47,542 nt of DNA from Ruminococcus sp. UBA4350 (GTDB lineage Bacteria; Bacillota; Clostridia; Oscillospirales; Ruminococcaceae). Both the position numbers and the translations under genes were made by a program. Where the stretch lies: positions 1 through 47,542 of the forward strand of contig DGSY01000021.1 in assembly GCA_002394125.1 (NCBI GenBank). Direction: 5' to 3'. The notes under the pieces were generated by a model that made no database searches, was not told the DNA's origin, and worked only from the letters and a program-made list of their open reading frames with translations. Shown here piece by piece: positions 2,690 to 47,495 of the stretch; the first letter of the stretch is position 1; the number at the start of each line of letters is the position of its first letter.

Positions 2690-5260
2690 TTATCCTTTCA
2701 TGGATGCGGTTTTCGCCGTAAGATAATTGACGAGCGGCTGAATGTCATTTGTGTCGATCGTCCCGTCCTTGTTTATGTCTGCGCGGCTGCGGTCTCCGAT
2801 CTTCTTTCCTGAAATGATCCGCTTGAGATAGGTGAGATCCGCCGCAGTGATCACGCCGTCGCCGTTGATATCACCGGTGAGATCCGGCAGATATGAGGTG
2901 TCGAAAACACTGCTGTCATTGATTGCATAGAGAATATCGCCGGTCGTTGAATACTTGCCGGTCTCACTGTCTTTCAGACAGCCGATGCCGTAATAGGGCA
3001 TCTCCCATTCCGTGCCGTCCGCGGAGATATAGATATCGCGTTCACCGATCTCGGCGTCCGGTTTATTCGGATCCCAGACGGGAATGCGGTACGGGAACGG
3101 TGATTCATCCCACTCGCCCTCGCTGAATCCGCAGCCGACTACGGCATGGCTTCCGGTTTTCAGATGCAGAACGATGATGATGATTTTGCCGTCAGCGCTG
3201 GCTCTGGACGCATAATCGAGCAGATGCAGCGGCTTTGACTGCCGGCTTTTCAGGAACGGTGCGGTGTCCGAATCGGATGCGGAAAGCAGCTGATAGGAAT
3301 TGATGATCGACAGCAGCTTTTCAGAGGGCTCCAGATCATGCAGACAGGTTGCCTGATCGCTGATCATATGCGGATCGAAGATGCCGTCATGCATCATCAT
3401 GACGAGCGCCGACATACCGAAGCAGGAGCCGCCCCATTTTTGTGTGAGATCTGCGCCTGCCTTTTGCAGCATCGCCCTGTGCGTATCACTGACATCATAG
3501 CTGCTTCCGAATACATATCCGGAATTTGCGAAGGAAAATACATTTTCGGGTGTTTTGAGTACGCTTTTGTATCTTGAGACCGTGCCGACGGGCGCGCTGG
3601 TTATGAATGTATAGTCAGCATCACGGGCAAAGTCCGATGCGGCACTGTTCTGAACGCCGAAAATGATGCGCTGCACGCGGTTTTTGCTTTCAGGTGTCTG
3701 CTGAATGCTGTCAGCGGCGATCGTTTTGACCGTTTTGGGGATGAACAGCTCATGCAGTTCATCTGAAATGATCGCGCCGGACTGGATCTCGGTGACAGTG
3801 TCGGGGATTTTCAGCGTATCGAGCGTCGGGCAGTCGAGCTGGCCGGTCTCGATGACCTTGAACTGCGCCGGCCAGCTCAGCGAGGTGATATTGCCCTGAA
3901 GCCAGCGCGGGGCGATATGGGTGACCGTATCGGGGATCTTCGGATTATAGTAGTCACCGGTATAGCGGAGCAGCCAGCCGTCAAGGATCAGCATTTCATC
4001 GGTCTGCGCGTCGAGCCATGCCGTATGGTCGAATGCTGCGCATTCGCATTTTTCCAGCGACTGCGGCAGGGAGAAGGATTTTGCATTCGGCAGATACCGG
4101 AAGGCTGCCGGGCTGACCTGCCGGACACCCTCCGGAACGGTGACCGATTCGACGGCATTGCGCACGTCATTGCGCTTAAAGATATTGCCGGTCGCAATTC
4201 TGCTGTTGTAGCCGATCTGCGAGACCGGAATGCCGTCAATCTCGGCCGGCAGCGTGACATTTTTCATCGGCTTGGTGACCTCATAGATGCAGGCGGTGCC
4301 GTCCTCCAGCATGAACCAGCGGATGCCGTCCTTTGTTTCATTCAGCGCATAGAACGGCATTTTATGCGCTGCTGCAAATGTCTCTGCCGCAGAGCCCTTT
4401 TCACCGAGAAGCGTGAGACCCTTGACATTGCCGAAGGCAGAGGGATCAATCTTTGTGCAGCTCGGCGGAATATAGAGTGCATCTGTCCGAATGCCGCTTA
4501 ATTCAAAGAGCTGGTCGGTGATTTCTTTGAGGTTGTCGGTGAAAATATGCTCCTCAAATTTAGCATTGATTCCTTTGATGGATGCGATATTGGTATATTC
4601 GACGCGGTATGACGCAGTCGATAAGCCGGGATAGCCGGCGTTCAGCCGTTTGGCCTCTTCCGGCAGAGTGACCGTGACGCCGGGCGCATCATTGGGAATG
4701 AATCCGATCAGAAAGTCATGAAAGAGAATGAAATCTCCGGCTTCCCCCTCTATCGTATCAAGAATGGCCGTATCGACGGTATAACCGTCATCGGTTTCTG
4801 TCATATAGTCCTGCATCTCAACGCGTGTGAGCGTTGTCGGGATCTGAACACTTTTCAGGTTTTTTGCATTCTTTGCGTTAATGTTAAAATTTGTGATGCC
4901 TTCGGAGAGAATCAGGTTTTCAACGGTTGTGTTATTGCGGAAATTAGTGTATCCGGTTAAATCGACCCGTTTGACCGGAATATTGCCCTCCCACTCGCCG
5001 TATTCACCGTTCAGTACTCTGTTTCGCAGGGATGCAGTGGTGATCTTTCCCGGATCAATGGAGGAGGGGATCACGAGATCCGGTCCGGCGGCATCCTCTG
5101 CAATATCCTTTACTCTGACATAATCATTCACGATCTGGAATGTGCAGTCGCAGCCCTCAACCGAGAAATAACTGGATTCAGATGCCAGCACCGGGATCGG
5201 GACGGACAGCATGAGCGCGGCCGAAAGACAGGCAGCCAATAAGAGCTTGATCGTTTTCAT
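2690..5260 (-). CDS. Secreted dockerin-containing protein with BspA-type leucine-rich repeats and a papain-like Cys-protease-like region
   Basis: Start moved to ATG 5260 (AGGAG upstream). Signal peptide MKTIKLLLAACLSAALMLSVPIPVLA, followed by LRR_5-like repeats. The central region shows GGSCFGMS ... GSHAVVGCGF ... VWDPN, the papain Cys/His/Asn order. C-terminal type I dockerin duplicated calcium-binding motifs DINGDGVITAADL / DINKDGTIDTNDI. Confidence 0.8.
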   Translation of the reverse strand: MKTIKLLLAACLSAALMLSVPIPVLASESSYFSVEGCDCTFQIVNDYVRVKDIAEDAAGPDLVIPSSIDPGKITTASLRNRVLNGEYGEWEGNIPVKRVDLTGYTNFRNNTTVENLILSEGITNFNINAKNAKNLKSVQIPTTLTRVEMQDYMTETDDGYTVDTAILDTIEGEAGDFILFHDFLIGFIPNDAPGVTVTLPEEAKRLNAGYPGLSTASYRVEYTNIASIKGINAKFEEHIFTDNLKEITDQLFELSGIRTDALYIPPSCTKIDPSAFGNVKGLTLLGEKGSAAETFAAAHKMPFYALNETKDGIRWFMLEDGTACIYEVTKPMKNVTLPAEIDGIPVSQIGYNSRIATGNIFKRNDVRNAVESVTVPEGVRQVSPAAFRYLPNAKSFSLPQSLEKCECAAFDHTAWLDAQTDEMLILDGWLLRYTGDYYNPKIPDTVTHIAPRWLQGNITSLSWPAQFKVIETGQLDCPTLDTLKIPDTVTEIQSGAIISDELHELFIPKTVKTIAADSIQQTPESKNRVQRIIFGVQNSAASDFARDADYTFITSAPVGTVSRYKSVLKTPENVFSFANSGYVFGSSYDVSDTHRAMLQKAGADLTQKWGGSCFGMSALVMMMHDGIFDPHMISDQATCLHDLEPSEKLLSIINSYQLLSASDSDTAPFLKSRQSKPLHLLDYASRASADGKIIIIVLHLKTGSHAVVGCGFSEGEWDESPFPYRIPVWDPNKPDAEIGERDIYISADGTEWEMPYYGIGCLKDSETGKYSTTGDILYAINDSSVFDTSYLPDLTGDINGDGVITAADLTYLKRIISGKKIGDRSRADINKDGTIDTNDIQPLVNYLTAKTASMKG

Positions 5261-5301
5261 ATATGCTCCTTTCGTCACATTGCCGATATTTCACTATTAT
5301 A

Positions 5302-16354: not shown

Positions 16355-17374
16355 TTATGAGAGCGGGAAGGTCACCTGCCAGTTTCCTGCGATATATTTC
16401 TGTGAGGTCACAAATTCGCCTGTCAGCGTATAGTCCGGCAGCTTCTCATATTCTACCGATATGATCTGCTCCGCATAAACATCGCGCTGAGCGGCATCCC
16501 GGTAGGTATAACCGAAATCCGCCGGCTCACCGACATTCTCGCCGTTCTCATCCAGCAGCATAAAGTGTCCGTGTGTGTCTGTGTGTTCAACATCCTCATA
16601 TTTTGAGAGGATATGCAGTGCGCCGTCCACATAGCCGATGTTCAGGACGGAAAAGCCGGGAACGGGCGTGCATATCGGCTCTGCCTTCGGAATCAGAAAC
16701 CGCATCGTTTCCGCCTCCGGCAGTGCATCTGCATTATACGCATATCCGCCTATGATCGAGGTGTGCTTTTCGGTTTCCGGCTCATAGGGGATGCTGCGCA
16801 GGTCGATCGCCTCAACCTCGCCCTCTTTGCGAATCTTTCCGAGCAGCATACTCCCGACGGAAAACGTCATTTTACCGTCCGGCAGATCGCTGCCGTTCAT
16901 CGTTTCCAGATGCACGATAAAATATGCGGTATGCGTTTCCGGATCATACTCCGAAAAGCTGCAATGTCCGGCCAAATCGCGCCGCACGCGGATCGAATAG
17001 CTGTCATTGAGATCCCAGCCGCCCTCGGGACAGGTGCCCGTCAGATCGCGCATCGCAAGATAAACATTCGCTTCGCAGCCGCTGCGCTCCGCGGAAATGA
17101 CCGTCATTTCAATGCCCTGATCGGTGCAGGATCTCTGCACGGGCTTGAAGGTCTGCGCGGCGGCGGGCGCAATGCGATAGAGTACATCATAGGCCGGATC
17201 GACACCGGCTGCGGTCAGTGCGGGCAGCGGGCAGACGATCAATGCAGCTGCGACAGACGCGGCCGCGATTCTTTTGAATATTCTGCGGCGGATCGGTCGT
17301 TTCGCCGGTACGCTGATATCCAGATACCGTTCGTCGATCTCACCCATTGCTTTCATAAACTGATCGGTATTCAC
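16355..17374 (-). CDS. Putative anti-sigma factor (single-pass membrane protein with extracytoplasmic domain)
   Basis: GTG start overlaps the sigma gene stop (GTGA). N-terminus FMKAMGEIDERYL, one TM (IAAASVAAALIVCPLPAL), about 270 aa outside. The call rests on its position directly downstream of the ECF sigma gene. Confidence 0.55.
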   Translation of the reverse strand: MNTDQFMKAMGEIDERYLDISVPAKRPIRRRIFKRIAAASVAAALIVCPLPALTAAGVDPAYDVLYRIAPAAAQTFKPVQRSCTDQGIEMTVISAERSGCEANVYLAMRDLTGTCPEGGWDLNDSYSIRVRRDLAGHCSFSEYDPETHTAYFIVHLETMNGSDLPDGKMTFSVGSMLLGKIRKEGEVEAIDLRSIPYEPETEKHTSIIGGYAYNADALPEAETMRFLIPKAEPICTPVPGFSVLNIGYVDGALHILSKYEDVEHTDTHGHFMLLDENGENVGEPADFGYTYRDAAQRDVYAEQIISVEYEKLPDYTLTGEFVTSQKYIAGNWQVTFPLS

Positions 17375-17928
17375 AGATAGCCCTCCTTTTTGAGTCTGGC
17401 GTATAGTTTTTTGCGTGTACGGAACAGCATGGATTTGACCTTGCTTTCGGAAAAGCCGTGTGCTGCGGCGATTTCAGAGACCGGCTGCATATACCAGTAC
17501 CGGCGCACGAATACATTCCGGTCGGTATCGGGAATGCTGCCGAGAAATGAATTGATCGCTTCGGTCAATGCCTGCTCGCTGACCTGCCGCTCGACATCCT
17601 CGCCGGACGCGAGCCATTCCGCGATCTCCTCAAAAACGACCTGTGCTTCTGCGGCACCGCGCTTTTTTGTTTTGGCGGCGCGGAGCTTATTCAGGCTGAT
17701 ATTGCGCGTCAGCCGTCCGAGAAAGGTTTGCAGGCAGGAAGGCTCATGCGGCGGGATGCTGTTCCACGCGGCGAGCCATGTGTCATTGAGCGCTTCCTCG
17801 GCGTCCTCCGGACATTGCAGGATATGCTGCGCAACGGCGCGGCAGTAGACCGTATATTTCTGCACGGTCTGTGCGACTGCTTCTTCATCACGGCTGAGAT
17901 ACAGCGCGATGATCTGCGGATCCTCCAT
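17371..17928 (-). CDS. ECF-type RNA polymerase sigma-70 family factor
   Basis: Region 2 (DAEEALNDTWLAAW) and region 4 HTH (VSEIAAAHGFSESKVKSMLFRTRKKL). GGGAGGGAAAG RBS. Confidence 0.85.
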   Translation of the reverse strand: MEDPQIIALYLSRDEEAVAQTVQKYTVYCRAVAQHILQCPEDAEEALNDTWLAAWNSIPPHEPSCLQTFLGRLTRNISLNKLRAAKTKKRGAAEAQVVFEEIAEWLASGEDVERQVSEQALTEAINSFLGSIPDTDRNVFVRRYWYMQPVSEIAAAHGFSESKVKSMLFRTRKKLYARLKKEGYL

Positions 17929-18003: not shown

Positions 18004-18495
18004 CTATAAAATTTTTTCGAGTCTGAGAAGCTGCATCTTTTTATCCAGCCCGCCTGCATAGCCGGTCAGTGCGCCGTTTGCGCCGAGCACTCTGTGGCAG
18101 GGGATGATAAGCGAGACCGGATTATGCCCGACTGCATCGCCGACGGCCTGCGCGGACATCCGGCTCCCCCGCTGCCGTGCGATGCGGTCTGCGATTTCCC
18201 CGTAGGTCATCGTGCAGCCGTATGGGATCGTCAGCAGGATCTCACAGACGGCTCTGCGAAAGGGCGTTGTCCGCAGGACGATCGGCGGGGTGAAGTCCGG
18301 AATCCTGCCGCTGAAATAGAGATCGAGCCAGCGGACGGTCTGTGCAAATACCGGCAGATCACATTCGGTGTATTTTCTGCTGAGCGTTTCACCGAAATGC
18401 GCCTGCCCGTCGAACCATAAGCCGGTCAGCAATTCGCCGCCGCCTGCCAGTGTGATCCCGCCGAGCGGGGAATCATAATGATAAATACAGTCCAT
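18004..18495 (-). CDS. ogt: Methylated-DNA--protein-cysteine methyltransferase
   Basis: IIPCHRVLGANGALTGYAGG active-site PCHR motif. TYGEIA helix. Confidence 0.9.
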   Translation of the reverse strand: MDCIYHYDSPLGGITLAGGGELLTGLWFDGQAHFGETLSRKYTECDLPVFAQTVRWLDLYFSGRIPDFTPPIVLRTTPFRRAVCEILLTIPYGCTMTYGEIADRIARQRGSRMSAQAVGDAVGHNPVSLIIPCHRVLGANGALTGYAGGLDKKMQLLRLEKIL

Positions 18496-18611
18496 ATTGA
18501 TATTCCTTTTCAGACAGCGCTTTGTGCGCGGATACGAACATTATAAAGGATGCGCCGCAAAATGTCAACTCAGCAGCTTCGCCGTGATCGGCGCTGATTC
18601 TGCGCATTTGC

Positions 18612-18640
18612 TTGACATCAGCAGACGTTTGTGATAAAAT
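18612..18640 (+). promoter_or_regulatory. Sigma-A promoter of the TIR-LRR two-gene module
   Basis: TTGACA - 17 nt - TAAAAT with TGa extended -10. The inverted repeat GTGATA-9-TATCAC (18631-18651) overlaps the -10. Confidence 0.65.
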
Positions 18641-18681
18641 AAAAGTATCACTCTGATTCCAAATGAAAGGCGGTATCTGCT

Positions 18682-19362
18682 ATGACTGATCTGTTCTTCT
18701 GTCCCGAACGCTGGGAACCCGACAGCATGATCTCCACCAATGCGGCATCCATGATCCGCGTACACGGTATCTCCGGCAAAGCAGCCGATGCGTGGCAGCT
18801 CGGCGACTGGGGAAGCAGCTGGACGGCGATCACCTCTGAGATCCCGATCGAACCAGGCTGGCTCGAATCCGGCGAGGAATACCGCCTCTGCTTCTGGCTC
18901 AACGGCGGCGAAAACAGCCGCGGCGATGAGATCTGTATGCTGGAGATCTACGGCGATGACTGGGAAGACCGCCTGACCTTCCGCCTCAACCGCGACCATA
19001 CCGCACCGCTGCTCGAAAAGGATCACTGGCTGCTCTTCGGTGTGCCGTTCCGTGCGCCGAAGGCTGCGGACGCGCTGAAATTCCGGTTTGTCGCGGCAGG
19101 CGCCGTCTGCACGATCGCCGGCATTCAGGATATGGATATGAATGCGGCGGAAGCACTCACGCCCGATGAGCGTGAGACCGGTCAGCCGCAGCGCTATAAT
19201 ATCATATTCCCGCACGGCTATCCGGCGCAGAGCCGTCAGCATCTGCTGAATGCTCGCGGCGGACGTTCCGGCGGACGGATTCTCGCTGTCTGCGCAGCAG
19301 CGGCAGCAGTCACCGGCATCACTGCCGCTGTGCTGATCCGCAGAGCGCGCAGACGCAAGTGA
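18682..19362 (+). CDS. Hypothetical tail-anchored protein with beta-sandwich (CBM/jelly-roll-like) N-terminal domain
   Basis: No signal peptide. The first 170 aa or so are Trp/Gly-rich and beta-type (WQLGDWGSSW, YRLCFWLNGG, LKFRFVAAG). Single C-terminal TM ILAVCAAAAAVTGITAAVLI followed by RRARRRK. The stop lies 11 nt before the TIR gene ATG. Confidence 0.6.
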   Translation: MTDLFFCPERWEPDSMISTNAASMIRVHGISGKAADAWQLGDWGSSWTAITSEIPIEPGWLESGEEYRLCFWLNGGENSRGDEICMLEIYGDDWEDRLTFRLNRDHTAPLLEKDHWLLFGVPFRAPKAADALKFRFVAAGAVCTIAGIQDMDMNAAEALTPDERETGQPQRYNIIFPHGYPAQSRQHLLNARGGRSGGRILAVCAAAAAVTGITAAVLIRRARRRK

Positions 19363-19373
19363 CGGAGGAAAGC

Positions 19374-20423
19374 ATGAAAAACGATTTTGATGTGTTCATC
19401 AGCTACCGGCGTGACGGCGGGATTCACCTGGCAAGACTGCTCCATGACAAACTGGAGCAGAGAGGCTTTCGCCTGTTTCTCGATATGGAAAATATGCGTG
19501 CCGGTAAATTCAACGAACAGCTCTTTACATACATTGAAAACTGCCCGTCTTTTCTGCTGGTGCTTCCGCCGGGTGCGCTGGACCGCTGCGTCAATGAAGA
19601 AGACTGGCTGCGCAGAGAGATCCGTCACGCGCTGAACACCCGGAAAAATATCGTCGTTGTCAAGGATTCCGAATTTGAAGACTATCCCGAAAATCTGCCG
19701 AATGATATTGCCGAGATCAGGCATTATCAGTCGGCTCGTGTCTCGGAGGAATATTTCGATGCATTCGTAGACCGTGTCGCGAATTATCTGCGGCAGGGAA
19801 GGGAAAATGCCGGGATTCCGCAGACTGCGCCGAAAGCGATCCCGCTGATCCAGCTGAAAAAGATGCCGCAGACCGTTCCGGCAAAAGCTGCACTGACCGC
19901 ACCGCAGACGCGTCCGGCTGCGTCTGTTCAGCCAATGCAGCCCGCTGCGGAAAAGCGTAAAACCGTTCTGCCGCCCGGTACGGAGACGGTCAATGTCCCT
20001 GCGGGCAAAGAAAAGGTCGGCGGCGGTGCATATGCCTGTGATCCGAAGATCGGAACGGTCGTCCTGCCGGAGGGCATCAAAGAGATCGGCATGGCGGCCT
20101 TCGCGGACTGTACCGGCCTGACCGCCGTGAAGCTCCCGCAGTCGCTGACGTATATCCGGTCAGGCGCATTCGCCGGCTGCCGGAATCTTCAGGAGATCCG
20201 CTTTCCGGACGGACTGAAGGAGATCGGCGCGGCCGCCTTTGCCGGATGCGTTTCCCTCAGCAGCATCACGCTGCCCGCTGCAAAGATCAGAGAGGGCGCG
20301 TTCGCTGACTGCTACAGGCTGGAAAATGCCGTGATCCCGGAAAATGCAGAGATCCTGCCGGATGCGTTTGCAGGATGCTGCAAGCTGAAAGATCCGGTAA
20401 AACAAACAGAAATAAAGGAGTAA
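19374..20423 (+). CDS. TIR-domain protein with C-terminal BspA-type leucine-rich repeats
   Basis: ATG 19374 with GGAGG 5 nt upstream; the track start 19359 is an upstream GTG. N-terminus DFDVFISYRRDGG...FLDMENMRAG...SFLLVLPPGAL...EDWLRREIRHAL is a TIR_2-like pattern. A Pro/Ala-rich linker follows. About 5 LRR_5 repeats (IKEIGMAAFADCTGLTAVKLPQSLTYIRSGAFAGCRNLQEIRFP...). No signal peptide or TM. Confidence 0.8.
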   Translation: MKNDFDVFISYRRDGGIHLARLLHDKLEQRGFRLFLDMENMRAGKFNEQLFTYIENCPSFLLVLPPGALDRCVNEEDWLRREIRHALNTRKNIVVVKDSEFEDYPENLPNDIAEIRHYQSARVSEEYFDAFVDRVANYLRQGRENAGIPQTAPKAIPLIQLKKMPQTVPAKAALTAPQTRPAASVQPMQPAAEKRKTVLPPGTETVNVPAGKEKVGGGAYACDPKIGTVVLPEGIKEIGMAAFADCTGLTAVKLPQSLTYIRSGAFAGCRNLQEIRFPDGLKEIGAAAFAGCVSLSSITLPAAKIREGAFADCYRLENAVIPENAEILPDAFAGCCKLKDPVKQTEIKE

Positions 20424-20431
20424 AGCAATCT

Positions 20432-21529
20432 ATGAAACTTGGTATGGTCGGACTGCCGAATGTCGGCAAAAGCACACTGTTCAATGCACTGACAAATGCA
20501 GGCGCGGAATCCGCAAACTATCCGTTCTGCACGATCGACAAGAATGTCGGCATCGTCTCCGTTCCGGATGCGCGTCTGGAAAAGCTCGCGGAGATCTATC
20601 AGCCGAAGAAATTCACGCCTGCGACCTTGCAGTTCGTCGATATCGCCGGACTCGTCAAGGGCGCATCAAAGGGCGAAGGTCTCGGCAACCGCTTCCTCGC
20701 AGATATCCGCGAGGTCGATGCGATCATTCATGTCGTGCGCTGCTTTGAGGATGACAATATCGTCCATGTGGACGGCTCGATCGACCCGAAGCGGGATATC
20801 GAGGTCATCAATCTGGAGCTGGTCTTCTCGGATATCGAGCTGATCGAGCGCCGCATTGACAAGACTGCGAAGCTCGCAAAGGGCGACAAGAAATATCAGG
20901 CGGATGTGGATCTGCTGAAGCGTCTGCTGGAGCATCTGACCGAGGGCAGACCAGCCCGCAGCTTTGACTGCACCGAGGACGAGCTTGCCGTGATCCTCGA
21001 AACGCCGCTGCTGACCGCAAAGCCCGTGATCTATGCGGCGAATCTTTCCGAGGCGGATTTCTCCGGTGATCTCGAAAGCAATGCGCATTTTCAGGCGGTC
21101 AGGGAGATCGCGGAATCCGAGAATGCTGCGGTCTTCCCGATCTGCGCGCAGATCGAAGCGGAGATCTCCGATATGGATCCGGAGGAGCAGGCGGTATTCC
21201 TCGCCGATCTCGGACTGGAGGAATCCGGCCTGACGCGCATCATCCACGCGGGCTATGCACTGCTCGGCCTGATTTCCTATCTGACCGGCGGCTCCGATGA
21301 ATGCCGCGCATGGACGATCAAAAAGGGCACCAAAGCACCGCAGGCTGCCGGCAAGATCCATTCGGATTTCGAGAAGGGATTCATCCGCGCAGAGGTCATT
21401 TCGTTCGAGGATTTCATGGCAAATGACGGCAATATGGTCGCTGCGAAGGAAAAGGGTGTTGTCCGCATGGAGGGCAAGACCTACGAAGTGCAGGACGGTG
21501 ATATCATCACATTCCACTTTACCTCCTGA
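20432..21529 (+). CDS. ychF: Ribosome-binding ATPase YchF
   Basis: [22 protein letters not shown]-loop, [13 protein letters not shown]-terminal TGS-like tail. AAAGGAG RBS inside the end of the TIR gene. The ATG is 8 nt after its stop. Confidence 0.95.
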
Positions 21530-21632
21530 AAGTTATTATCTGTGAATAATATTGCTATATTGGCAGCTTTGTAGATTTTTTCTCTTTCGTTTCCGATTGC
21601 TAAAGTCTGGAAAAAGACTGGAGATGATAAAT

Positions 21633-22064
21633 ATGTCAACATACGAAGATAAATTAGATGAAGTTTGTGAACGCTGGTATTGTGGTTTCTATGACAGATT
21701 TGAAGATCTGTGCGTGATAAATAATTATAGCATTCAAACTGTGTCAAAGATGACAAGAATATCGCCTGCAACTATATCACAATGGCAAGCTTATCGAGAT
21801 AGCAGTACGGGATTAGATGCATTACTATTTGGTTCTAGAGGATCAAATCCAGGCATTGATTCAATCATCAAACTATCAGTGTGTTTTAATTGTTCGAGTG
21901 ATTACCTTATTGGACTGAGAGTTAATTGGAAAGCTGAACAACTCAATCGTGTGTTTGATCAGTTATCCGACGATAATCAAATAAAGGTTCAAGAATTTGC
22001 GGCCAAATTGTTGAGAGAGCAGCAAGAAATCAAAACACATCTGGAAATCGACGAATCTAAATAA
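21633..22064 (+). CDS. Orphan XRE/Cro-C1-type HTH protein in a low-GC islet
   Basis: HTH pattern SIQTVSKMTRISPATISQWQ ... IIKLSVCFNCSSDYLIGL. An alternative in-frame ATG lies at 21624. The sequence is visibly AT-rich compared with its neighbours. Confidence 0.65.
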   Translation: MSTYEDKLDEVCERWYCGFYDRFEDLCVINNYSIQTVSKMTRISPATISQWQAYRDSSTGLDALLFGSRGSNPGIDSIIKLSVCFNCSSDYLIGLRVNWKAEQLNRVFDQLSDDNQIKVQEFAAKLLREQQEIKTHLEIDESK

Positions 22065-22096: not shown

Positions 22097-22155
22097 CCCC
22101 AATAACAAACAGCACGCCCGATGCGGAACCGGACGTGCTGTTTTGTTTATTGGGG
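22097..22155. terminator. Long hairpin, bidirectional terminator; member of repeat family 3 (partner 42851-42888)
   Basis: CCCCAATAACAAACAGCACG - 17 nt loop - CGTGCTGTTTTGTTTATTGGGG. The inner stem plus loop (CAGCACGCCCGATGCGGAACCGGACGTGCTGTTTTGTTTAT) recurs, reverse-complemented, at 42841-42885 with 2-3 differences. Confidence 0.65.
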
Positions 22156-42015: not shown

Positions 42016-42846
42016 ATGAATCGACCGTATGCGGGGCTTGCCCTGCTGACCGATCTGGACGGCACCCTGCTGCGTCCGGATAAGACCGTCGCGCCGGAGG
42101 ATGCGGCGGCGATCGCAGATTTCCGCGCAAATGGCGGACTTTTCAGCTTTGCGACCGGCCGCGGTCAGCAGGCATCGCAGGCCTATCTGGAGCTGTTTCA
42201 GCCGGATTTTCCGGTGGTGATGTATAACGGCGCGCTGCTCATGGATCCGAAAACCGGACAGAGCGCGGGCGCGGAATATCTGCCGGCGGAGGCGCGGGCG
42301 CTGCTGGAGGAGCTGGCGGCGGCGTTTCCGGATGTCGGCGCGGAGGTGCTGCATCCGGAGGGCGTATTCGTCTTTCAGGACAGCGAGGTCGAGCGGACGC
42401 ATCTGCGCGTGACGAATGTGCCGTTTGTCATGCGGACACTCGATGAAGCGAATCCTGCGGATTGCTACAAGGCGCTCTTTGCCGGAACACCGGAGCGCAT
42501 CGCTGAAATGCATGAATACATCAAAAAGGCGCGCTTTTCGCAGATCAATTTCACGCGCTCGCACGAATGCTTTCTGGAAATCCTGCCCCCGGATACGAAC
42601 AAGGGCACGGCGCTGGAAAAGATCCGCAGGACGCTGCCGGACGGCATGAAGATCTGTGCGACCGGCGATTTTGACAATGATGCGGCGATGCTGCTGACAG
42701 CGGATTACTGCGGCTGTCCGGCGGATTCGCAGCCGGCGGTGCTGGATGCAGTCCGGCAGAGCGGCGGCTATATCTCACCGAAAACCTGTGCGGACGGCTT
42801 CTTTGCCGCATGGGTGGAGAATGTGCTCGAACATTTTGCACGATAA
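42016..42846 (+). CDS. Cof-type HAD-IIB family hydrolase
   Basis: LLTDLDGTLL motif I, FATGR, KGTALEKI and GDFDNDAAML motif IV. AAGGAG RBS. Confidence 0.85.
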   Translation: MNRPYAGLALLTDLDGTLLRPDKTVAPEDAAAIADFRANGGLFSFATGRGQQASQAYLELFQPDFPVVMYNGALLMDPKTGQSAGAEYLPAEARALLEELAAAFPDVGAEVLHPEGVFVFQDSEVERTHLRVTNVPFVMRTLDEANPADCYKALFAGTPERIAEMHEYIKKARFSQINFTRSHECFLEILPPDTNKGTALEKIRRTLPDGMKICATGDFDNDAAMLLTADYCGCPADSQPAVLDAVRQSGGYISPKTCADGFFAAWVENVLEHFAR

Positions 42847-42850
42847 ACAA

Positions 42851-42888
42851 AACAGCACGTCCGGTTTCGCATCGGGCGCGCTGTTTTC
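42851..42888 (+). terminator. Intrinsic terminator after the HAD gene; repeat family 3 copy
   Basis: AACAGCACG - 17 nt - CGCGCTGTT (one mismatch) followed by TTTC. It is the reverse complement of the 22107-22150 hairpin, including the loop sequence. Confidence 0.6.
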
Positions 42889-42890
42889 TG

Positions 42891-43056
42891 TTAGGGCGTG
42901 TTGACACTAAAATAATATGCGGATTTATGAGATGATTTTGTTCCGTTTAAGGCAAAAATCCGCAGGCGGGCTGTCGCCCGGCAAGGATTTTTAACGACGA
43001 ACGGGGCAAAATCAGCCAGAAAGACGCGTGTTAGGCTTAGTGTCAACACGCCCTAA
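42891..43056. repeat. 166-bp element bounded by perfect 20-bp terminal inverted repeats (MITE-like or structured RNA)
   Basis: TTAGGGCGTGTTGACACTAA (42891-42910) and its exact reverse complement (43037-43056). The interior is also self-complementary: AAAAATCC...GGATTTTT, CGGGC-TGTC-GCCCG, GATTTTGTTCCGTT versus AACGGGGCAAAATC. Confidence 0.7.
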
Positions 43057-43156: not shown

Positions 43157-43179
43157 TTGGTCTCTCTTGGCAGAATACA

Positions 43180-43210
43180 GAAAAAAGCCCTCCGGATAAC
43201 CGGAAGGCTT
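43180..43210 (-). terminator. Intrinsic terminator of tRNA-Val
   Basis: On the minus strand, AAGCCTTCCGG-TTAT-CCGGAGGGCTT is followed by TTTTTT. Confidence 0.7.
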
Positions 43211-43215
43211 CTGGA

Positions 43216-43289
43216 TGAGGATGAGCGGACTTGAACCGATGACCCCCTGCATGTCAAGCAGGTACTCTAACCAACTGAGCTACACCCTC
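43216..43289 (-). tRNA. tRNA-Val (anticodon GAC)
   Basis: Manual cloverleaf: acceptor GAGGGTG/CATCCTC, D arm GCTC-AGTTGGTTA-GAGT, anticodon arm CCTGC-TTGACAT-GCAGG, variable GGGTC, T arm ATCGG-TTCAAGT-CCGCT with one U-C mismatch, discriminator A. CCA is not encoded. Confidence 0.85.
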
Positions 43290-43301
43290 ACAACAAAACC
43301 T

Positions 43302-43330
43302 ATTATACCACATGATTTGCGATTTGTCAA
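43302..43330 (-). promoter_or_regulatory. Sigma-A promoter of tRNA-Val
   Basis: Minus strand reads TTGACA - 17 nt - TATAAT, ending about 12 nt before the tRNA 5' end. Confidence 0.7.
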
Positions 43331-43419
43331 CCCCTATTTTGAAAAAAACGAAAATTTTTCTGAGAAAGATTCCTGCGGGCAAAATCCGCGGCAATTTCCT
43401 GTAAATTCGCTTCTGCCCC

Positions 43420-43448
43420 TTGCGGAGAGCGGAAAATTGTGTTATAAT
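43420..43448 (+). promoter_or_regulatory. Sigma-A promoter for the GNAT gene
   Basis: TTGCGG - 17 nt - TATAAT. Confidence 0.55.
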
Positions 43449-43482
43449 AATGCTGTATGCCAACCGGAAAGGAGATTCGGAT

Positions 43483-43959
43483 ATGGAGTATCAGCTCAGA
43501 GAAGCGGCGGCTTCGGATATCCCGGAGCTTTGCAGACTGCGGCTCGCCTATTTCGATGAGGAATTTGACAGCATCGAACCCGAAACGCTCAGCGCGATCC
43601 GGACATCGCTTCCGGAATATTTCGCGGCGCATCTCGGGAAGGACTGCTTTGTCTTTGCGGCGGCATCGCCGGAGGGCGGACTGCTTTCCAATGTCATTCT
43701 GGTCGTCAGCGAAAAGCCCGCGAATCCCTCGTTCCCGCACGGCCGCAGCGGTTATGTCCTCGGCGTATTTACGGAAGAATCCGCCCGCAGACAGGGCATC
43801 GCGTCCGCGCTGATGGAGATGCTGCTCGAAAAGGCGAAAGCGCTGAGACTCGATACCGTCACCCTCTCGGCCAGCGAAATGGGCAGGGGCATCTATGAAA
43901 AGCTCGGCTTTACCGTGAAGGAATCCCACTTCACCGAAATGGAGTGGTTTCCGTCCTGA
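43483..43959 (+). CDS. GNAT-family N-acetyltransferase
   Basis: ATG 43483 with AAGGAG RBS. Acetyl-CoA motif A RRQGIASALMEMLLEKAK and the tail GRGIYEKLGF. Confidence 0.85.
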   Translation: MEYQLREAAASDIPELCRLRLAYFDEEFDSIEPETLSAIRTSLPEYFAAHLGKDCFVFAAASPEGGLLSNVILVVSEKPANPSFPHGRSGYVLGVFTEESARRQGIASALMEMLLEKAKALRLDTVTLSASEMGRGIYEKLGFTVKESHFTEMEWFPS

Positions 43960-44013
43960 GCATACAGTTTTAATAAAGAGACTGCCATACAGAGAAAAGA
44001 AAGGATACACATT

Positions 44014-45024
44014 ATGGATATCGGAATTGACCTCGGAACCGCGAATATCATTATTACGAGGCGGCGGCGCGGCGTTGTGCTGAATGAGCCGTCGGTCATC
44101 GCATACAACAAGCACACGGAGCGCGTGGTCGCCGTCGGTGAGGAGGCCTACCGCATGGAGGGGCGCTCTCCGTCCTATATCGCGGTCGTGCATCCGGTGC
44201 AGGACGGCGTGATCTCCGATGATATTCTCACGCAGGCGCTGATCCGTGAGCTGATCGACGTTGTCGCCGGCTTCCATATCATCAAGCCGCGCATTATTAT
44301 CTGCGTCCCCTCGCTCATCACGGATGTCGAAAAGCGCGCAATTCTCGATGCTGCCATGAGCACCGGCTCGCGCAAGGTGCATCTGATCCAGGAGCCGCTT
44401 GCCGCACTGCTCGGCGCCGGTATCCCGATCAACCGGCCGGTCGGCCATATGGTCGTCGATATCGGCGGCGGCACGACGGATATCGCGGTCGTCTCGATGA
44501 ACGGCATTGTCACGGCGCGTTCGATCAAGGCCGCCGGAAACAAATTCGACCAGTCGATCATCCGCTATGTGCAGAATAAATATCAGATCCTTCTCGGCGC
44601 AAAATCCGCGGAGCAGGTCAAGATCTCCCTCTGCAATGTCTATAATCCGGCAGAGGATGTAATCGCGCAGGTCAAGGGGCGGAATATCTCCCGCGGCCTG
44701 CCCGATCAGTGCGACCTCAGCGAAGCGGAGCTTTCGGAGGCGCTGGAGGATGATGTCAACCTCATCGGCGAGACGATCCGCCGTGTTCTGGAGGATACCC
44801 CGCCGGAGCTGGTCGGCGATATCTGTCAGAACGGCATTCTGCTGACGGGCGGCGGTGCGCTGCTCGGCGGTCTGGAGCAATATCTGACGCGTATGCTCGG
44901 CGTTCCCTGCCGCACGGCAAAGGATCCGCTGACCTGTGTTGCCCGCGGAACGGAAAAAGCATTTGCACGGCGTGACATCCTGCTGGACGGCTTTGAGCGC
45001 ATTGATGCATATACACAGGAATGA
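44014..45024 (+). CDS. mreB: Rod-shape-determining actin homologue MreB/Mbl
   Basis: IGIDLGTANI, VVDIGGGTTDIAV, GILLTGGGALLGGL. Confidence 0.9.
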   Translation: MDIGIDLGTANIIITRRRRGVVLNEPSVIAYNKHTERVVAVGEEAYRMEGRSPSYIAVVHPVQDGVISDDILTQALIRELIDVVAGFHIIKPRIIICVPSLITDVEKRAILDAAMSTGSRKVHLIQEPLAALLGAGIPINRPVGHMVVDIGGGTTDIAVVSMNGIVTARSIKAAGNKFDQSIIRYVQNKYQILLGAKSAEQVKISLCNVYNPAEDVIAQVKGRNISRGLPDQCDLSEAELSEALEDDVNLIGETIRRVLEDTPPELVGDICQNGILLTGGGALLGGLEQYLTRMLGVPCRTAKDPLTCVARGTEKAFARRDILLDGFERIDAYTQE

Positions 45025-45060
45025 TCCGCCCGATGCTTGTCCGTTCAGGAGGATGCCCAC

Positions 45061-46425: not shown

Positions 46426-46430
46426 AGAAC

Positions 46431-46463
46431 GCACCGCAGCAAACACGCTGCGGTGCGTTTTTA
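46431..46463 (+). terminator. Intrinsic terminator after the AI-2E transporter gene
   Basis: GCACCGCAGC-AAACAC-GCTGCGGTGC is a perfect 10-bp stem, followed by GTTTTTAT. Confidence 0.8.
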
Positions 46464-46653
46464 TCTGAAAGCGGCAGTCACGCAGCCCCCGAACCGAAAG
46501 CTCCTCTCCGGGCGCGCATGACTGCGGATTCTTTCTGCCGCTTTTCATACTGCCACTTTCCGTTCTCGCGGAGTGCGGGATCACCGCCTGACAGTATTAT
46601 ATGCAGCATTTCCGAAAATGCGACAGGAAATCTTTTCCTGCGGCTGCGAAAGC

Positions 46654-47469: not shown

Positions 47470-47495
47470 TTTCGGGTTACTTCCTTTCATTATTT

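What the first reader, a model, noticed from the sequence alone, without database searches (positions are those of the whole stretch)
18612..20423. Self-promoted two-gene module: tail-anchored beta-sandwich protein + cytoplasmic TIR/BspA-LRR protein, wedged directly upstream of ychF
**Seen in the sequence**
- A near-consensus promoter (TTGACA-17-TAAAAT, TG-extended) is overlapped by a GTGATA-9-TATCAC inverted repeat.
- It drives two genes separated by 11 nt. The second gene ends 8 nt before ychF, whose RBS lies inside it.
- Gene 2 has a TIR_2-like N-terminus (DVFISYRRDG...) and a W-x-x-x-E type segment (EDWLRREI). That segment sits where NADase-active TIR domains carry their catalytic glutamate.
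- A Pro/Ala-rich linker follows, then about 5 BspA-type LRRs. There is no signal peptide, so the LRR is cytoplasmic.
- Gene 1 has no recognisable family. It looks like a jelly-roll/CBM-like domain held at the membrane by a C-terminal TM helix with an RRARRRK tail.

**Background**
- Bacterial TIR domains act as NAD+-consuming or signal-producing effectors in Thoeris, CBASS, Pycsar, SPARTA and other systems.
- TIR plus LRR is the logic of plant TNL receptors and animal TLRs.

**Inference**
- None of the partner genes of the known bacterial TIR systems (SIR2/SLOG ThsA, cyclase, Argonaute, STING) is present here.
- A TIR-LRR sensor-effector with a membrane-tethered partner would therefore be a distinct, possibly undescribed architecture.
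- Base composition looks native, so this is not an obvious recent island.
Basis: partly seen in the sequence, partly recalled or inferred. Interest (0 to 1): 0.8.

Follow-up and report, generated by a model that had tools for sequence, protein, structure and literature searches.

The report
Solitary SARM1-like TIR–LRR cargo gene
The two genes are real but are not a pair: the first is a conserved clade-specific gene that normally sits directly in front of ychF, and the second is an optional, fast-evolving gene inserted between them, encoding a bacterial look-alike of the NAD-destroying SARM1 TIR domain fused to a leucine-rich-repeat sensor.

Summary
That includes the promoter, both ORFs, the 11-nt and 8-nt gaps, TIR_2 plus LRR_5, the W-x-x-x-E motif, the absence of a signal peptide, a β-sandwich with a C-terminal TM helix, and native base composition.

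The "two-gene module" reading fails.
- Gene 1 lies upstream of ychF in all 34 informative related genomes. In 21 of them nothing lies between the two genes.
- The junction is a variable slot. In other genomes it holds lipoproteins, SH3 proteins, a TPR protein, or unrelated TIR proteins.
- Only one other fetched genome (L002) has gene 2. A relative with ~95% nucleotide identity (L001) has deleted it and kept gene 1 and ychF.
- TIR–LRR_5 relatives elsewhere have no gene-1 neighbour and no conserved partner.
- The promoter belongs to the conserved gene 1–ychF operon. The inverted repeat is not conserved.

Gene 2's TIR is a close SARM1 homologue: E=2e-27, 39% identity, TM 0.84–0.88. It keeps Y568/R569/R570, W638 and the catalytic E642.

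It belongs to a large bacterial clade. In 58% of the nearest clusters a TM helix follows the TIR, which predicts TIR inside and sensor domain outside. Gene 2 is a soluble variant.

Most likely it is a single-gene, ligand-gated NADase. A defence role is plausible but untested.

The parts
18612..18640 (+). Extended -10 sigma-70-type promoter of the gene 1-(cargo)-ychF operon
   Evidence: It scores 11/12 plus TG. The pattern cTTGACA-17-TGnTAnAAT is conserved upstream of gene 1 in nearly all orthologous loci.
18631..18651 (.). GTGATA-N9-TATCAC perfect inverted repeat. The left arm is simply the extended -10 region.
   Evidence: Present in the sequence. Base rate is one per 213 nt. The right arm is not conserved in L001 (TATCCC), L002 (TATTCT) or other loci. 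Probably not a functional operator.
18682..19362 (+). Gene 1: conserved clade-specific protein with an N-terminal β-sandwich (aa 1-165), a disordered basic linker, and a C-terminal TM helix (aa 198-220) with a basic tail. It is a core partner of ychF, not of gene 2.
   Evidence: No family hit. About 65 protein clusters at 57-98% identity. Relatives in 251 species genomes. ychF lies downstream in 34/34 informative loci. AF2 pLDDT 80. Generic jelly-roll fold matches only. ω = 0.21.
19374..20423 (+). Gene 2: solitary SARM1-type TIR - disordered linker - BspA-type LRR_5 protein. It is variable cargo in the gene 1/ychF slot.
19389..19790 (+). TIR domain (aa 6-139), SARM1-like
   Evidence: phmmer against PDB hits the SARM1 TIR at E = 1.8e-27 over the full domain. 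BLASTP gives 39% identity, E = 4e-36. Foldseek gives TM 0.84-0.88 and rmsd 1.4-2.5 Å.
19617..19619 (+). Codon of E82, the counterpart of the SARM1 catalytic E642. W78 (19605-19607) corresponds to W638.
   Evidence: Alignments. W78 and E82 are invariant in 10 TIR-LRR_5 proteins and at least 90% conserved in 98 clade members.
19809..19970 (+). Pro/Ala/Gln-rich disordered linker (aa 146-199), with no TM helix
   Evidence: pLDDT below 50. Maximum hydropathy is 1.56. Length-variable and poorly conserved among close homologues. ω = 0.43.
19983..20387 (+). BspA-type LRR_5 domain, about 5-6 repeats of roughly 23 aa
   Evidence: Pfam LRR_5 at 3.9e-28. Six regularly spaced β-strands. Foldseek matches TpLRR 6mlx and Bacteroides and Firmicutes LRR surface proteins.
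20432..21529 (+). ychF (ribosome-binding ATPase), the conserved downstream anchor of the slot. Its RBS (20414-20420) lies within the end of gene 2.
   Evidence: Pfam YchF-GTPase_C and MMR_HSR1. 77-98% identity in all related loci. No terminator predicted between gene 2 and ychF.
18004..18495 (-). ogt (O6-methylguanine-DNA methyltransferase). It is divergent from gene 1, with its own 12/12 consensus promoter at 18568-18540. It is not part of the conserved context.
   Evidence: Pfam. Promoter. No ogt found upstream of gene 1 in any other locus. In L001 and L002 the sequence upstream of window position 18597 corresponds to window 43170-47491 reversed.

Best explanation
Shown
- Gene 1 and ychF form a conserved operon in a clade of rumen and gut Oscillospiraceae ('Ruminococcus'-like MAGs). 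A conserved strong extended -10 promoter upstream of gene 1 drives it.
- The short junction between gene 1 and ychF is a variable slot that has repeatedly gained and lost unrelated cargo genes.
- In this genome the cargo is gene 2, a single self-contained gene. Gene 1 is not its partner.

Strongly inferred from sequence and structure
- Gene 2's N-terminal domain is a SARM1-type TIR NAD+ glycohydrolase with an intact active site (Y11, R12, R13, BB-loop G44, W78, E82).
- A disordered linker of about 55 residues joins it to a short BspA-type LRR with no secretion signal, so both domains are cytoplasmic.

Inferred mechanism (untested)
- Gene 2 is transcribed constitutively with a housekeeping operon, so the enzyme must be held inactive.
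- Binding of a ligand to the LRR would bring TIR domains together. The ligand is most plausibly a phage or other invader protein, or a multivalent cellular cue.
- TIR self-association would assemble the composite active site, as it does in SARM1, plant TNLs and bacterial TIR effectors.
- NAD+ would then be depleted (or an ADPR-derived signal made), stopping growth of the affected cell.

Supporting pattern
- Gene 2 evolves faster than its neighbours, is present or absent among close relatives, and sits in a slot that also holds other shuffled TIR genes. This fits a conflict or immunity gene better than a housekeeping one.

Rough confidence by layer: cargo and not-a-pair about 0.9; NADase-competent SARM1-type TIR about 0.75; LRR-gated activation about 0.5; anti-phage role about 0.35.
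For: Synteny and the slot
- ychF is downstream of gene 1 in 34/34 informative loci. The slot is empty in 21, filled with other cargo in 11, holds the gene 2 orthologue in 1 (L002), and holds a remnant in 1 (L001).
- In L001 (about 95% nucleotide identity) the TIR and linker are deleted and one hybrid LRR repeat remains, while gene 1 and ychF are intact.
- The promoter is conserved across orthologous loci. No terminator is predicted inside the operon.

Gene 2 stands alone
- Other TIR-LRR_5 proteins lie between housekeeping genes (lgt/folD, Rce1-like, PHP/HAD, AraC/GNAT). They have no gene 1 homologue and no shared neighbour.
- No known TIR-system partner lies within about ±15 kb. PADLOC and NCBIfam give only partial TIR-domain hits.

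SARM1-type TIR
- Active-site residues are invariant or nearly invariant in the family.

Selection and turnover
- ω is 0.40 for gene 2 (TIR 0.31, LRR 0.50), against 0.21 for gene 1 and 0.035 for ychF. Gene 2 is functional but fast-evolving.
- Independent TIR cargo occupies the same slot elsewhere: L067 has a different TIR plus LRR_5, and L019 has a PASTA lipoprotein plus a multi-TIR protein.

Literature
- SARM1's TIR nests in a mainly bacterial clade, and bacterial TIR NADases act in phage defence (PMC13142454, PMC8494770).
Against: - No enzymatic or phenotypic data exist. NADase activity and any defence role are inferred only.
- The gene is not in a recognisable defence island. None of the five TIR-LRR_5 contexts examined shows defence-gene neighbours.
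- The family is almost absent from viral contigs (1 relative).
- There is no oligomerisation or NTPase module (no SAM, NB-ARC or NACHT), so how a 5-6 repeat LRR would drive TIR assembly is unclear.
- SARM1 H685 is replaced by Glu, and the second BB-loop residue (K597) by Asn.
- Most of the nearest TIR relatives are membrane proteins with an external C-terminal domain. The ancestral role of this TIR clade may therefore be envelope or extracellular sensing rather than intracellular invader sensing.
- Other cargo in the slot is mostly envelope lipoproteins, not defence genes.
- The dN/dS estimate rests on a single pair and a simple NG86 calculation.
Confidence: 0.6

Rival explanations
1. First reader's model. 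Gene 1 (a membrane-tethered β-sandwich) and gene 2 (TIR-LRR) form a dedicated two-gene sensor-effector system with its own regulated promoter, inserted upstream of ychF.
For: The genes are tightly packed (11-nt gap) and co-transcribed from one promoter. Gene 2 lacks the TM helix that most relatives have, while gene 1 supplies a membrane anchor. TIR genes recur next to gene 1 in 3 other loci (L002, L019, L067).
Against: Gene 1 occurs without any TIR gene in 30 of 34 related loci and directly abuts ychF in 21. L001 lost gene 2 but kept gene 1. TIR-LRR_5 proteins elsewhere have no gene 1 homologue nearby. The promoter is the conserved gene 1-ychF promoter and the inverted repeat is not conserved. 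Distant gene 1 homologues have no conserved neighbour at all.
Confidence: 0.06
2. Gene 2 is a soluble relic of a membrane-receptor family (TIR inside, TM helix, LRR outside). It has lost its TM helix and is on the way to being lost, so it is functionally inert or nearly so.
For: 58% of the nearest TIR clusters, and four of the roughly 30%-identical TIR-LRR_5 homologues, have a TM helix after the TIR. BspA-type LRRs are typically extracellular (one search matches; my background knowledge). Gene 2 is deleted in L001. Constraint is relaxed, ω = 0.40.
Against: The ORF is intact with all catalytic residues in four lineages at 67-100% identity. ω is well below 1 in both the TIR and the LRR. TM-less TIR-LRR_5 proteins also exist at only about 30% identity (P0006, P0033), so the soluble architecture is old and maintained. 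36 of 147 clade representatives are soluble N-terminal TIR proteins.
Confidence: 0.12
3. Gene 2 is a physiological regulator rather than an immune gene. It would be an NAD+-consuming growth-arrest, stress or envelope-signal switch co-expressed with the translation- and stress-related ATPase YchF.
For: Gene 2 is embedded in a housekeeping operon and uses its promoter, and ychF's RBS lies inside it. There are no defence neighbours here or at other TIR-LRR_5 loci. The family is rare on viral contigs. Other cargo in the slot is envelope proteins (PASTA, SH3, lipoproteins).
Against: Patchy presence and absence among close relatives, and rapid evolution, are unusual for a core regulator. The slot's contents are unrelated to each other, so position in the operon carries little functional information.
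Confidence: 0.15
4. Gene 2 is an exported NADase toxin or effector aimed at competitors or the animal host, like TirS, TcpC or BtpA, or like polymorphic toxins.
For: Bacterial TIR NADases can act on host cells (PMC8494770). BspA-type LRRs mediate adhesion in other organisms (my background knowledge).
Against: There is no signal peptide, TM helix, LXG/WXG-type N-terminus, secretion-system gene or immunity gene nearby. The TIR sits at the extreme N-terminus.
Confidence: 0.04

Closest known systems
SARM1 / C. elegans TIR-1 TIR domain (animal NAD+ hydrolase)
   Same: The whole-domain sequence matches (E = 1.8e-27; 39% identity) and the folds superpose (TM 0.84-0.88). The SYRR motif (Y568/R569/R570), BB-loop Gly, W638 and catalytic E642 are conserved.
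   Different: The TIR is N-terminal, not C-terminal. There is no ARM autoinhibitory domain and no SAM octamerisation domain; an LRR_5 takes their place. H685 is replaced by Glu and K597 by Asn. The host is a bacterium.
Bacterial SARM1-like TIR clade ('clade 8' of PMC13142454; Zhang et al. 2011 as cited there)
   Same: Gene 2's TIR belongs to a very large bacterial family: 535 clusters at E<=1e-30. The TIR is N-terminal and the C-terminal regions vary.
   Different: Most near relatives (85/147) have a TM helix after the TIR, and gene 2 does not. I found no paper describing the LRR_5 fusion or the TM architecture. A 2020 survey reported finding no bacterial SARM1 homologues (PMC7075850).
Thoeris ThsB (types I-III) and other partnered bacterial TIR systems (CBASS or Pycsar TIR effectors, SPARTA TIR-APAZ, TIR-STING, TIR-SAVED, Cat1)
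   Same: All share the TIR fold and the catalytic Glu. Gene 2 gives weak partial HMM hits to ThsB1 (1e-8), ThcB4 (2e-12) and SAVED_TIR.
   Different: The hits cover only the TIR core and fall far below family cut-offs (46.6 against 220 bits). There is no ThsA (SIR2, SLOG or Macro), cyclase, pAgo, STING, SAVED or CARF domain in the protein or within ±15 kb.
Plant TNL receptors and animal Toll-like receptors (TIR + LRR logic)
   Same: One protein combines a TIR signalling or enzymatic domain with an LRR recognition domain. TM-containing homologues (P0007, P0010, P0048, P0103) even have the TLR-like split of LRR outside and TIR inside.
   Different: There is no NB-ARC or STAND NTPase between TIR and LRR, unlike TNLs. 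The domain order is reversed compared with TLRs, and gene 2 has no TM helix. The LRR is the BspA/LRR_5 type, not the typical or plant-specific type. The TIR is of the enzymatic SARM1 type, not a TLR scaffold TIR.
BspA / TpLRR-type LRR_5 surface proteins of gut and oral bacteria
   Same: The C-terminal 140 residues are a standard LRR_5 solenoid (Pfam 98 bits; Foldseek matches 6mlx and 4fs7). The same window encodes a secreted LRR_5-dockerin protein.
   Different: There is no signal peptide, lipobox, dockerin or wall anchor, so the LRR is predicted to be cytoplasmic. It is short (5-6 repeats) and fused to a TIR.

Membership tests
TIR domain superfamily (Pfam TIR_2, PF13676) | HMM score above the gathering threshold over most of the domain | tested here: met
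   41.2 bits against a cut-off of 28, over aa 7-121. The AF2 model shows the flavodoxin-like βαβ TIR fold.
SARM1-type catalytic TIR | Full-length domain homology to the SARM1 or TIR-1 TIR | tested here: met
   E = 1.8e-27 over aa 6-139. 39% identity. TM 0.84-0.88.
SARM1-type catalytic TIR | Catalytic Glu (E642) with W638, plus the Y568/R569/R570 pocket and BB-loop Gly | tested here: met
   E82, W78, Y11, R12, R13 and G44 all align. They are invariant in TIR-LRR_5 homologues. H685 is not conserved (Glu).
SARM1-type catalytic TIR | NAD+ glycohydrolase activity | not testable with these tools
   This needs an enzyme assay.
SARM1 orthologue (whole protein) | ARM-SAM-SAM-TIR architecture with SAM-driven octamer | tested here: not met
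   Only TIR_2 and LRR_5 are detected, and the TIR is N-terminal.
Thoeris | ThsB-family TIR protein at family-level score | tested here: not met
   NCBIfam ThcB4 scores 46.6 bits against a cut-off of 220. The PADLOC ThsB1 hit covers aa 5-95 only.
Thoeris | Adjacent ThsA effector (SIR2/SLOG, Macro or TM) | tested here: not met
   The neighbours are ogt, gene 1, ychF, an HTH gene and an HD gene. Nothing of that kind lies within ±15 kb.
CBASS / Pycsar / SPARTA / TIR-STING | Cyclase, pAgo, or a fused STING, SAVED or APAZ domain | tested here: not met
   These are absent from the protein and the neighbourhood.
TIR-NLR (plant TNL, bacterial STAND/Avs-like) | NB-ARC or NACHT P-loop NTPase between the TIR and the repeats | tested here: not met
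   Between the TIR and the LRR there is a 55-residue disordered linker with no domain.
Toll-like-receptor-type topology | A single TM helix separating the LRR from the TIR | tested here: not met
   Gene 2's maximum 19-residue hydropathy is 1.56, so it has no TM helix. The feature is met in homologues P0007, P0010, P0048 and P0103 and in 85/147 clade representatives, with positive-inside bias in 78/84.
BspA-type LRR (Pfam LRR_5) | HMM score above the gathering threshold | tested here: met
   98.3 bits against 27.7, over aa 215-338. The structure matches TpLRR.
BspA-like surface proteins | Export signal or surface anchoring | tested here: not met
   The N-terminus is the TIR βA strand (MKNDFDVFISY). 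There is no hydrophobic segment.
   Gene 2 is present in 1 of 34 gene-1 loci, plus one remnant. No gene 1 is annotated near 4 other TIR-LRR_5 genes.
Tail-anchored membrane protein (gene 1) | A single C-terminal TM helix, no N-terminal signal, soluble N-terminal domain | tested here: met
   The TM helix spans aa 198-220 (hydropathy 2.33). The N-terminus forms β-strand 1 of a confident β-sandwich. Orientation was not tested, because basic residues flank both sides of the TM helix.

The most novel reading that the evidence does not exclude
Gene 2 may represent a large, essentially undescribed class of bacterial receptor-enzymes. In this class an N-terminal SARM1-type NADase TIR is wired directly, without any NTPase, to a variable ligand-binding domain (LRR_5, DUF285, Sel1, DUF6273, FGE-sulfatase-like and others).

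In most members a TM helix places the sensor outside and the TIR inside. That would be a prokaryotic, domain-inverted counterpart of Toll-like receptors whose output is NAD+ destruction. Gene 2 and its kin would be soluble versions that survey the cytoplasm.

This clade would also be the bacterial lineage nearest to the animal SARM1 TIR. It would open outside-in TIR signalling in bacteria to experiment.
Probability: 0.3. Interest if true: 0.75.

Novelty: new variant of a known kind. Interest (0 to 1): 0.45.

Why it matters
If gene 2 is an LRR-gated NADase, it would be a minimal one-polypeptide TIR-LRR sensor-effector. It would lack both the NTPase switch of plant TNLs and the SAM/ARM machinery of SARM1. 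That makes it a simple system for asking how ligand binding to a repeat domain turns on a TIR enzyme.

At 39% identity it is also one of the closer bacterial relatives of the human SARM1 TIR. This bears on the debated bacterial origin of SARM1: PMC7075850 reported finding no bacterial homologues, whereas PMC13142454 places SARM1 in a bacterial clade.

The related TM-containing proteins suggest that bacteria may couple extracellular recognition to cytoplasmic NAD+ hydrolysis.

The locus also illustrates accessory genes being swapped in and out inside a housekeeping operon, with core genes on both flanks. Defence-island searches would not flag such a site.

Tried and rejected
- **PADLOC and NCBIfam scans of both proteins.** These gave only partial TIR-core hits and no system assignment. 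A Loki-CTERM hit to gene 1's tail (E = 0.21) was rejected as noise.
- **Two-gene co-occurrence.** Tested across 79 loci and rejected.
- **Operator role for the inverted repeat.** Rejected because it is not conserved and occurs at a chance-level base rate.
- **A specific function for gene 1 from its fold.** Foldseek gave only generic jelly-roll, CBM, lectin, Eph-LBD and tailspike matches with TM 0.3-0.6. No assignment was made.
- **A conserved partner for distant gene 1 homologues.** Clustering of neighbours found none. The gene calling was crude and dropped 17 loci.
- **TIR-only word-indexed homology search.** It returned only short proteins and was uninformative about architectures. The exhaustive search replaced it.
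- **Phage origin.** Only 1 relative was found among 2.9 million viral contigs.
- **Inverted repeats at the rearrangement breakpoints (18597 and 43170).** None were found.
- **A regex count of LRR_5 repeats among clade members.** It was unreliable and is not used.
- **Zhang et al. 2011 (PMC3085110).** It could not be read and is cited only through PMC13142454.
- **Heterodimer structure prediction of gene 1 + gene 2.** The tools here do not offer it.


Full report

Yes. The region reads exactly as described.
- TTGACA (18612-18617), a 17-nt spacer and TAAAAT (18635-18640) with TG at 18632-18633 score 11/12 plus TG in the promoter scan.
- The GTGATA-N9-TATCAC inverted repeat is at 18631-18651.
- Gene 1 is 18682-19362 (226 aa). 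Gene 2 is 19374-20423 (349 aa, with GGAGG 6 nt before its ATG). The gap is 11 nt.
- ychF starts at 20432, 8 nt after gene 2's stop codon. Its AAAGGAG RBS lies inside gene 2.
- No terminator is predicted between the three genes.
- GC content (0.55-0.61) matches the flanks.

**2. What the two proteins are**

Gene 2:
- It scores above Pfam's cut-offs for TIR_2 (41 bits, aa 7-121) and LRR_5 (98 bits, aa 215-338).
- Against all PDB sequences, its first 147 residues hit the SARM1 TIR domain at E = 1.8e-27 over the whole domain. The next non-SARM1 TIR (TLR15) scores only 2e-3.
- Pairwise identity to the human SARM1 TIR is 39% (61% positives, E = 4e-36).
- In chain 7knq numbering, gene 2 D6 aligns to 563. 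Y11/R12/R13 therefore correspond to Y568/R569/R570, W78 to W638, and E82 to the catalytic E642. SARM1 H685 is Glu here.
- The AF2 model (pLDDT 75.5) shows a TIR (aa 6-145), a disordered linker (aa 146-199) and a six-strand LRR solenoid.
- Foldseek puts the TIR on SARM1 and TIR-1 (TM 0.84-0.88, rmsd 1.4-2.5 Å). It puts the LRR on T. pallidum TpLRR and gut-bacterial LRR surface proteins.
- There is no hydrophobic segment (maximum 1.56).

Gene 1:
- It matches no Pfam, NCBIfam or PADLOC family.
- It folds confidently (pLDDT above 90 for aa 1-165) as a β-sandwich. The nearest structures are generic CBM, lectin, Eph-LBD and tailspike jelly-rolls with TM 0.3-0.6.
- A disordered basic stretch follows, then a C-terminal TM helix (aa 198-220) and RRARRRK.

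**3. Are they a module?**

No.
- Gene 1 has about 65 protein clusters at 57-98% identity, and relatives in 251 species genomes.
- Gene 2 has only three close full-length relatives, plus a handful at about 30% identity.
- I fetched 79 gene-1 loci. In the 35 with at least 53% identity, ychF lies downstream on the same strand in all 34 that extend far enough.
- The space between the two genes is empty (about 10-140 nt) in 21 of those 34 loci.
- It holds the gene 2 orthologue in one locus (L002, a horse-faeces MAG; TIR 65%, LRR 76% identical).
- In L001 it holds a remnant. L001 is about 95% identical at the nucleotide level. Its TIR and linker are gone and a single hybrid LRR repeat is left, while gene 1 and ychF are intact.
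- The remaining 11 loci hold unrelated cargo:
  - Pairs of family-less lipoproteins (L004, L005, L009, L013, L020).
  - SH3_3 lipoproteins, one with DUF6273 (L024, L030, L031).
  - A TPR-like protein (L015).
  - A PASTA lipoprotein plus a multi-TIR protein (L019).
  - A different TIR_2 fused to LRR_5 (L067). Its LRR is 35-39% identical to gene 2's, but its TIR is not alignable to gene 2's.
- Conversely, four other TIR-LRR_5 genes sit between housekeeping genes (lgt/folD; Rce1-like/Zn-ribbon; PHP/HAD; AraC/GNAT). They have no gene-1 homologue and no shared neighbour. One locus has two tandem TIR-LRR_5 paralogues.
- Distant gene 1 homologues (32-40% identity, Lachnospiraceae and others) are not next to ychF and have no conserved neighbour.

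**4. The promoter and the repeat**

- The sequence cTTGACA-17-TGnTAnAAT is conserved upstream of gene 1 in nearly all orthologous loci. It is therefore the promoter of the conserved gene 1-ychF operon. Gene 2 simply rides on it.
- The left arm of the inverted repeat is that extended -10 region.
- The right arm is not conserved even in L001 (TATCCC) or L002 (TATTCT).
- Perfect 6-nt repeats with 5-13-nt spacers occur once per 213 nt in the window.
- I therefore do not regard the repeat as an operator.

ogt is not part of the conserved context.
- No other locus has it upstream of gene 1.
- In L001 and L002 the DNA upstream of window position 18597 corresponds to window 43170-47491 reversed. This implies an inversion or rearrangement, or possibly an assembly join, with one end 15 nt upstream of the -35 box.

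**5. Wider family of gene 2**

- An exhaustive phmmer search with the TIR domain against 1.84 billion representatives found 7,698 hits (535 at E<=1e-30).
- In the best 147, the TIR is nearly always N-terminal.
- 85 of the 147 (58%) have a TM helix at residues 130-260, directly after the TIR. 36 are soluble like gene 2.
- In 78 of 84 single-TM members there are more Lys and Arg residues before the helix than after it (4.8 against 2.0). This places the TIR in the cytoplasm and the C-terminal domain outside.
- Four of the TIR-LRR_5 homologues (P0007, P0010, P0048, P0103) have this topology.
- In 98 members scanned against Pfam, LRR_5 is the commonest recognisable partner (9). It is followed by Sel1 (4), DUF285 (3), TPR, FGE-sulfatase and DUF6273 (2 each). 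Most have no recognisable C-terminal domain.
- W78 and E82 and the SYRR motif are invariant or at least 90% conserved.

Gene 2 is thus a soluble variant of a large, mostly membrane-anchored family of SARM1-type TIR proteins with variable sensor-like C-termini.

**6. Selection**

- Between the window and L002, NG86 ω is 0.40 for gene 2 (TIR 0.31, linker 0.43, LRR 0.50). For comparison, gene 1 is 0.21 and ychF is 0.035.
- Gene 2 is under purifying selection but evolves much faster than its neighbours. This is a single pair and a simple method.

**7. Known systems**

- PADLOC and NCBIfam give only partial TIR-core hits: ThsB1 at 1e-8, ThcB4 at 46.6 bits against a 220-bit cut-off, and SAVED_TIR.
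- The ±15 kb around the locus is housekeeping. It contains thyX, folD, an Rce1-like gene, M16 peptidases, aldose epimerase, upp, spoVAC, an ECF σ/anti-σ pair, ogt, ychF, an HD gene, queA, mutL, mutS, ylbF, nfi and miaB.
- There is no ThsA, cyclase, pAgo, STING, SAVED or NTPase gene.
- The family is almost absent from viral contigs (1 relative).

**8. Literature**

- SARM1's TIR is reported to nest in a mainly bacterial clade, consistent with horizontal acquisition (PMC13142454, citing Zhang et al. 2011).
- A 2020 survey stated that it failed to find bacterial SARM1 homologues (PMC7075850).
- Bacterial TIR NADases act in phage defence (PMC8494770).
- My full-text searches for bacterial TIR + BspA/LRR_5, "TIR-LRR" + NADase, "TIR-TM", and SARM1-like + transmembrane found no description of these architectures. 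That is absence in the held library, not proof of novelty.

**9. Most likely mechanism**

- Shown: gene 2 is a solitary, optional cargo gene in a variable slot of a conserved operon. It encodes an intact SARM1-type TIR fused to a cytoplasmic LRR_5.
- Inferred: because it is constitutively co-transcribed with ychF, the enzyme must be kept off. Ligand binding to the LRR would cluster the TIR domains, assemble the composite active site and trigger NAD+ hydrolysis, causing growth arrest.
- A conflict or defence role is favoured by the presence/absence polymorphism, the rapid evolution and the shuffling of TIR cassettes in the slot.
- It is weakened by the lack of defence-island context, the envelope-protein nature of other cargo, and the absence of any oligomerisation module.

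**10. Verdict**

- Gene 2 is a new variant of a known kind. It is a TIR NADase with a fused sensor, but with a SARM1-type TIR, a BspA-type LRR, no NTPase and no partner.
- Interest is moderate (0.45). The most interesting lead lies outside the original claim: the large TIR-TM-ectodomain family to which gene 2 belongs.

Noticed in passing
window 18597 and 43170-47491; L001 92-4992; L002 1424-5922: In both close relatives, the DNA upstream of gene 1 is the reverse complement of window 43170-47491 (GNAT, mreB-like and other genes), not ogt. This implies an inversion or rearrangement of about 24.6 kb (or an assembly join) with one end 15 nt upstream of the gene 1 -35 box. No inverted repeats were found at the breakpoints.
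   Followed up: partly
window 21552-22064 (+): A 170-aa ORF with a weak HTH_3 hit lies immediately downstream of ychF. It has strikingly low GC (0.35; GC3 0.30, against about 0.7 for its neighbours), so it is probably foreign DNA next to the slot.
   Followed up: no
window 22097-22150 and 42843-42896; also L001 8628-8671: A 54-nt palindromic element (89% complementary copies in inverted orientation, hairpin-forming and terminator-like) is repeated about 20.7 kb apart and is conserved in a relative. It may be a dispersed repeat or terminator family.
   Followed up: no
window 2690-5278 (-): An 862-aa protein carries LRR_5 plus a type I dockerin. The genome therefore also encodes cellulosome-associated secreted BspA-type LRR proteins, which points to a fibrolytic rumen or gut Ruminococcus-like organism.
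   Followed up: no
Proteins P0231-P0377, e.g. P0239, P0241, P0242, P0007: There is a large family of N-terminal SARM1-like TIR proteins. 58% of the nearest clusters have a TM helix right after the TIR and a variable, probably extracellular C-terminal domain, with positive-inside bias in 78/84. I found no description of this receptor-like architecture in the held literature.
   Followed up: partly
L019 5716-7933: The same gene 1/ychF slot holds a 3xPASTA lipoprotein followed by a protein of about 495-532 aa with two to three TIR_2 domains. Its second TIR looks highly similar by eye (not computed) to the TIR of the L067 TIR-LRR_5 cargo, suggesting TIR cassette shuffling between slot occupants.
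   Followed up: partly
L082 2906-6446: Two tandem TIR_2-LRR_5 paralogues. One has an FtsK_gamma winged-helix domain between the TIR and the LRR, and one (P0048) has a TM helix and a Cys-rich region.
   Followed up: no
L088 1-6660: A 219-aa SARM1-like TIR protein (P0210) has an N-terminal TM helix. It lies directly downstream of giant LRR_5, DUF285 and Big_2 surface-protein genes. This TIR clade is thus associated with BspA-like repeats by adjacency as well as by fusion.
   Followed up: no
L087 4998-6296 (IMG/VR UViG_3300045988_176260): This is the only viral-contig relative. It is a 432-aa protein with a SARM1-like TIR (44% identity) and a C-terminal region of about 290 aa that I did not scan against domain libraries, near the end of a 55-kb viral contig.
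   Followed up: no
window 18540-18568 (-): A perfect 12/12 consensus promoter (TTGACA-17-TATAAT) drives ogt divergently, 44 nt from the gene 1 -35 box.
   Followed up: no
window 16355-17928 (-): An ECF sigma factor (185 aa) overlaps by 4 nt a 339-aa family-less protein with one TM segment, which is probably its anti-sigma factor. ECF homologues also lie upstream of gene 1 in L032 and L034.
   Followed up: no
L039 1300-3006; L041 3111-4556; L071 6001-7404: Distant gene 1 homologues occur as tandem duplicates in some Clostridia. Many distant members are longer (about 330-364 aa) and some (P0187) replace the C-terminal TM helix with a long acidic coiled-coil-like tail.
   Followed up: no
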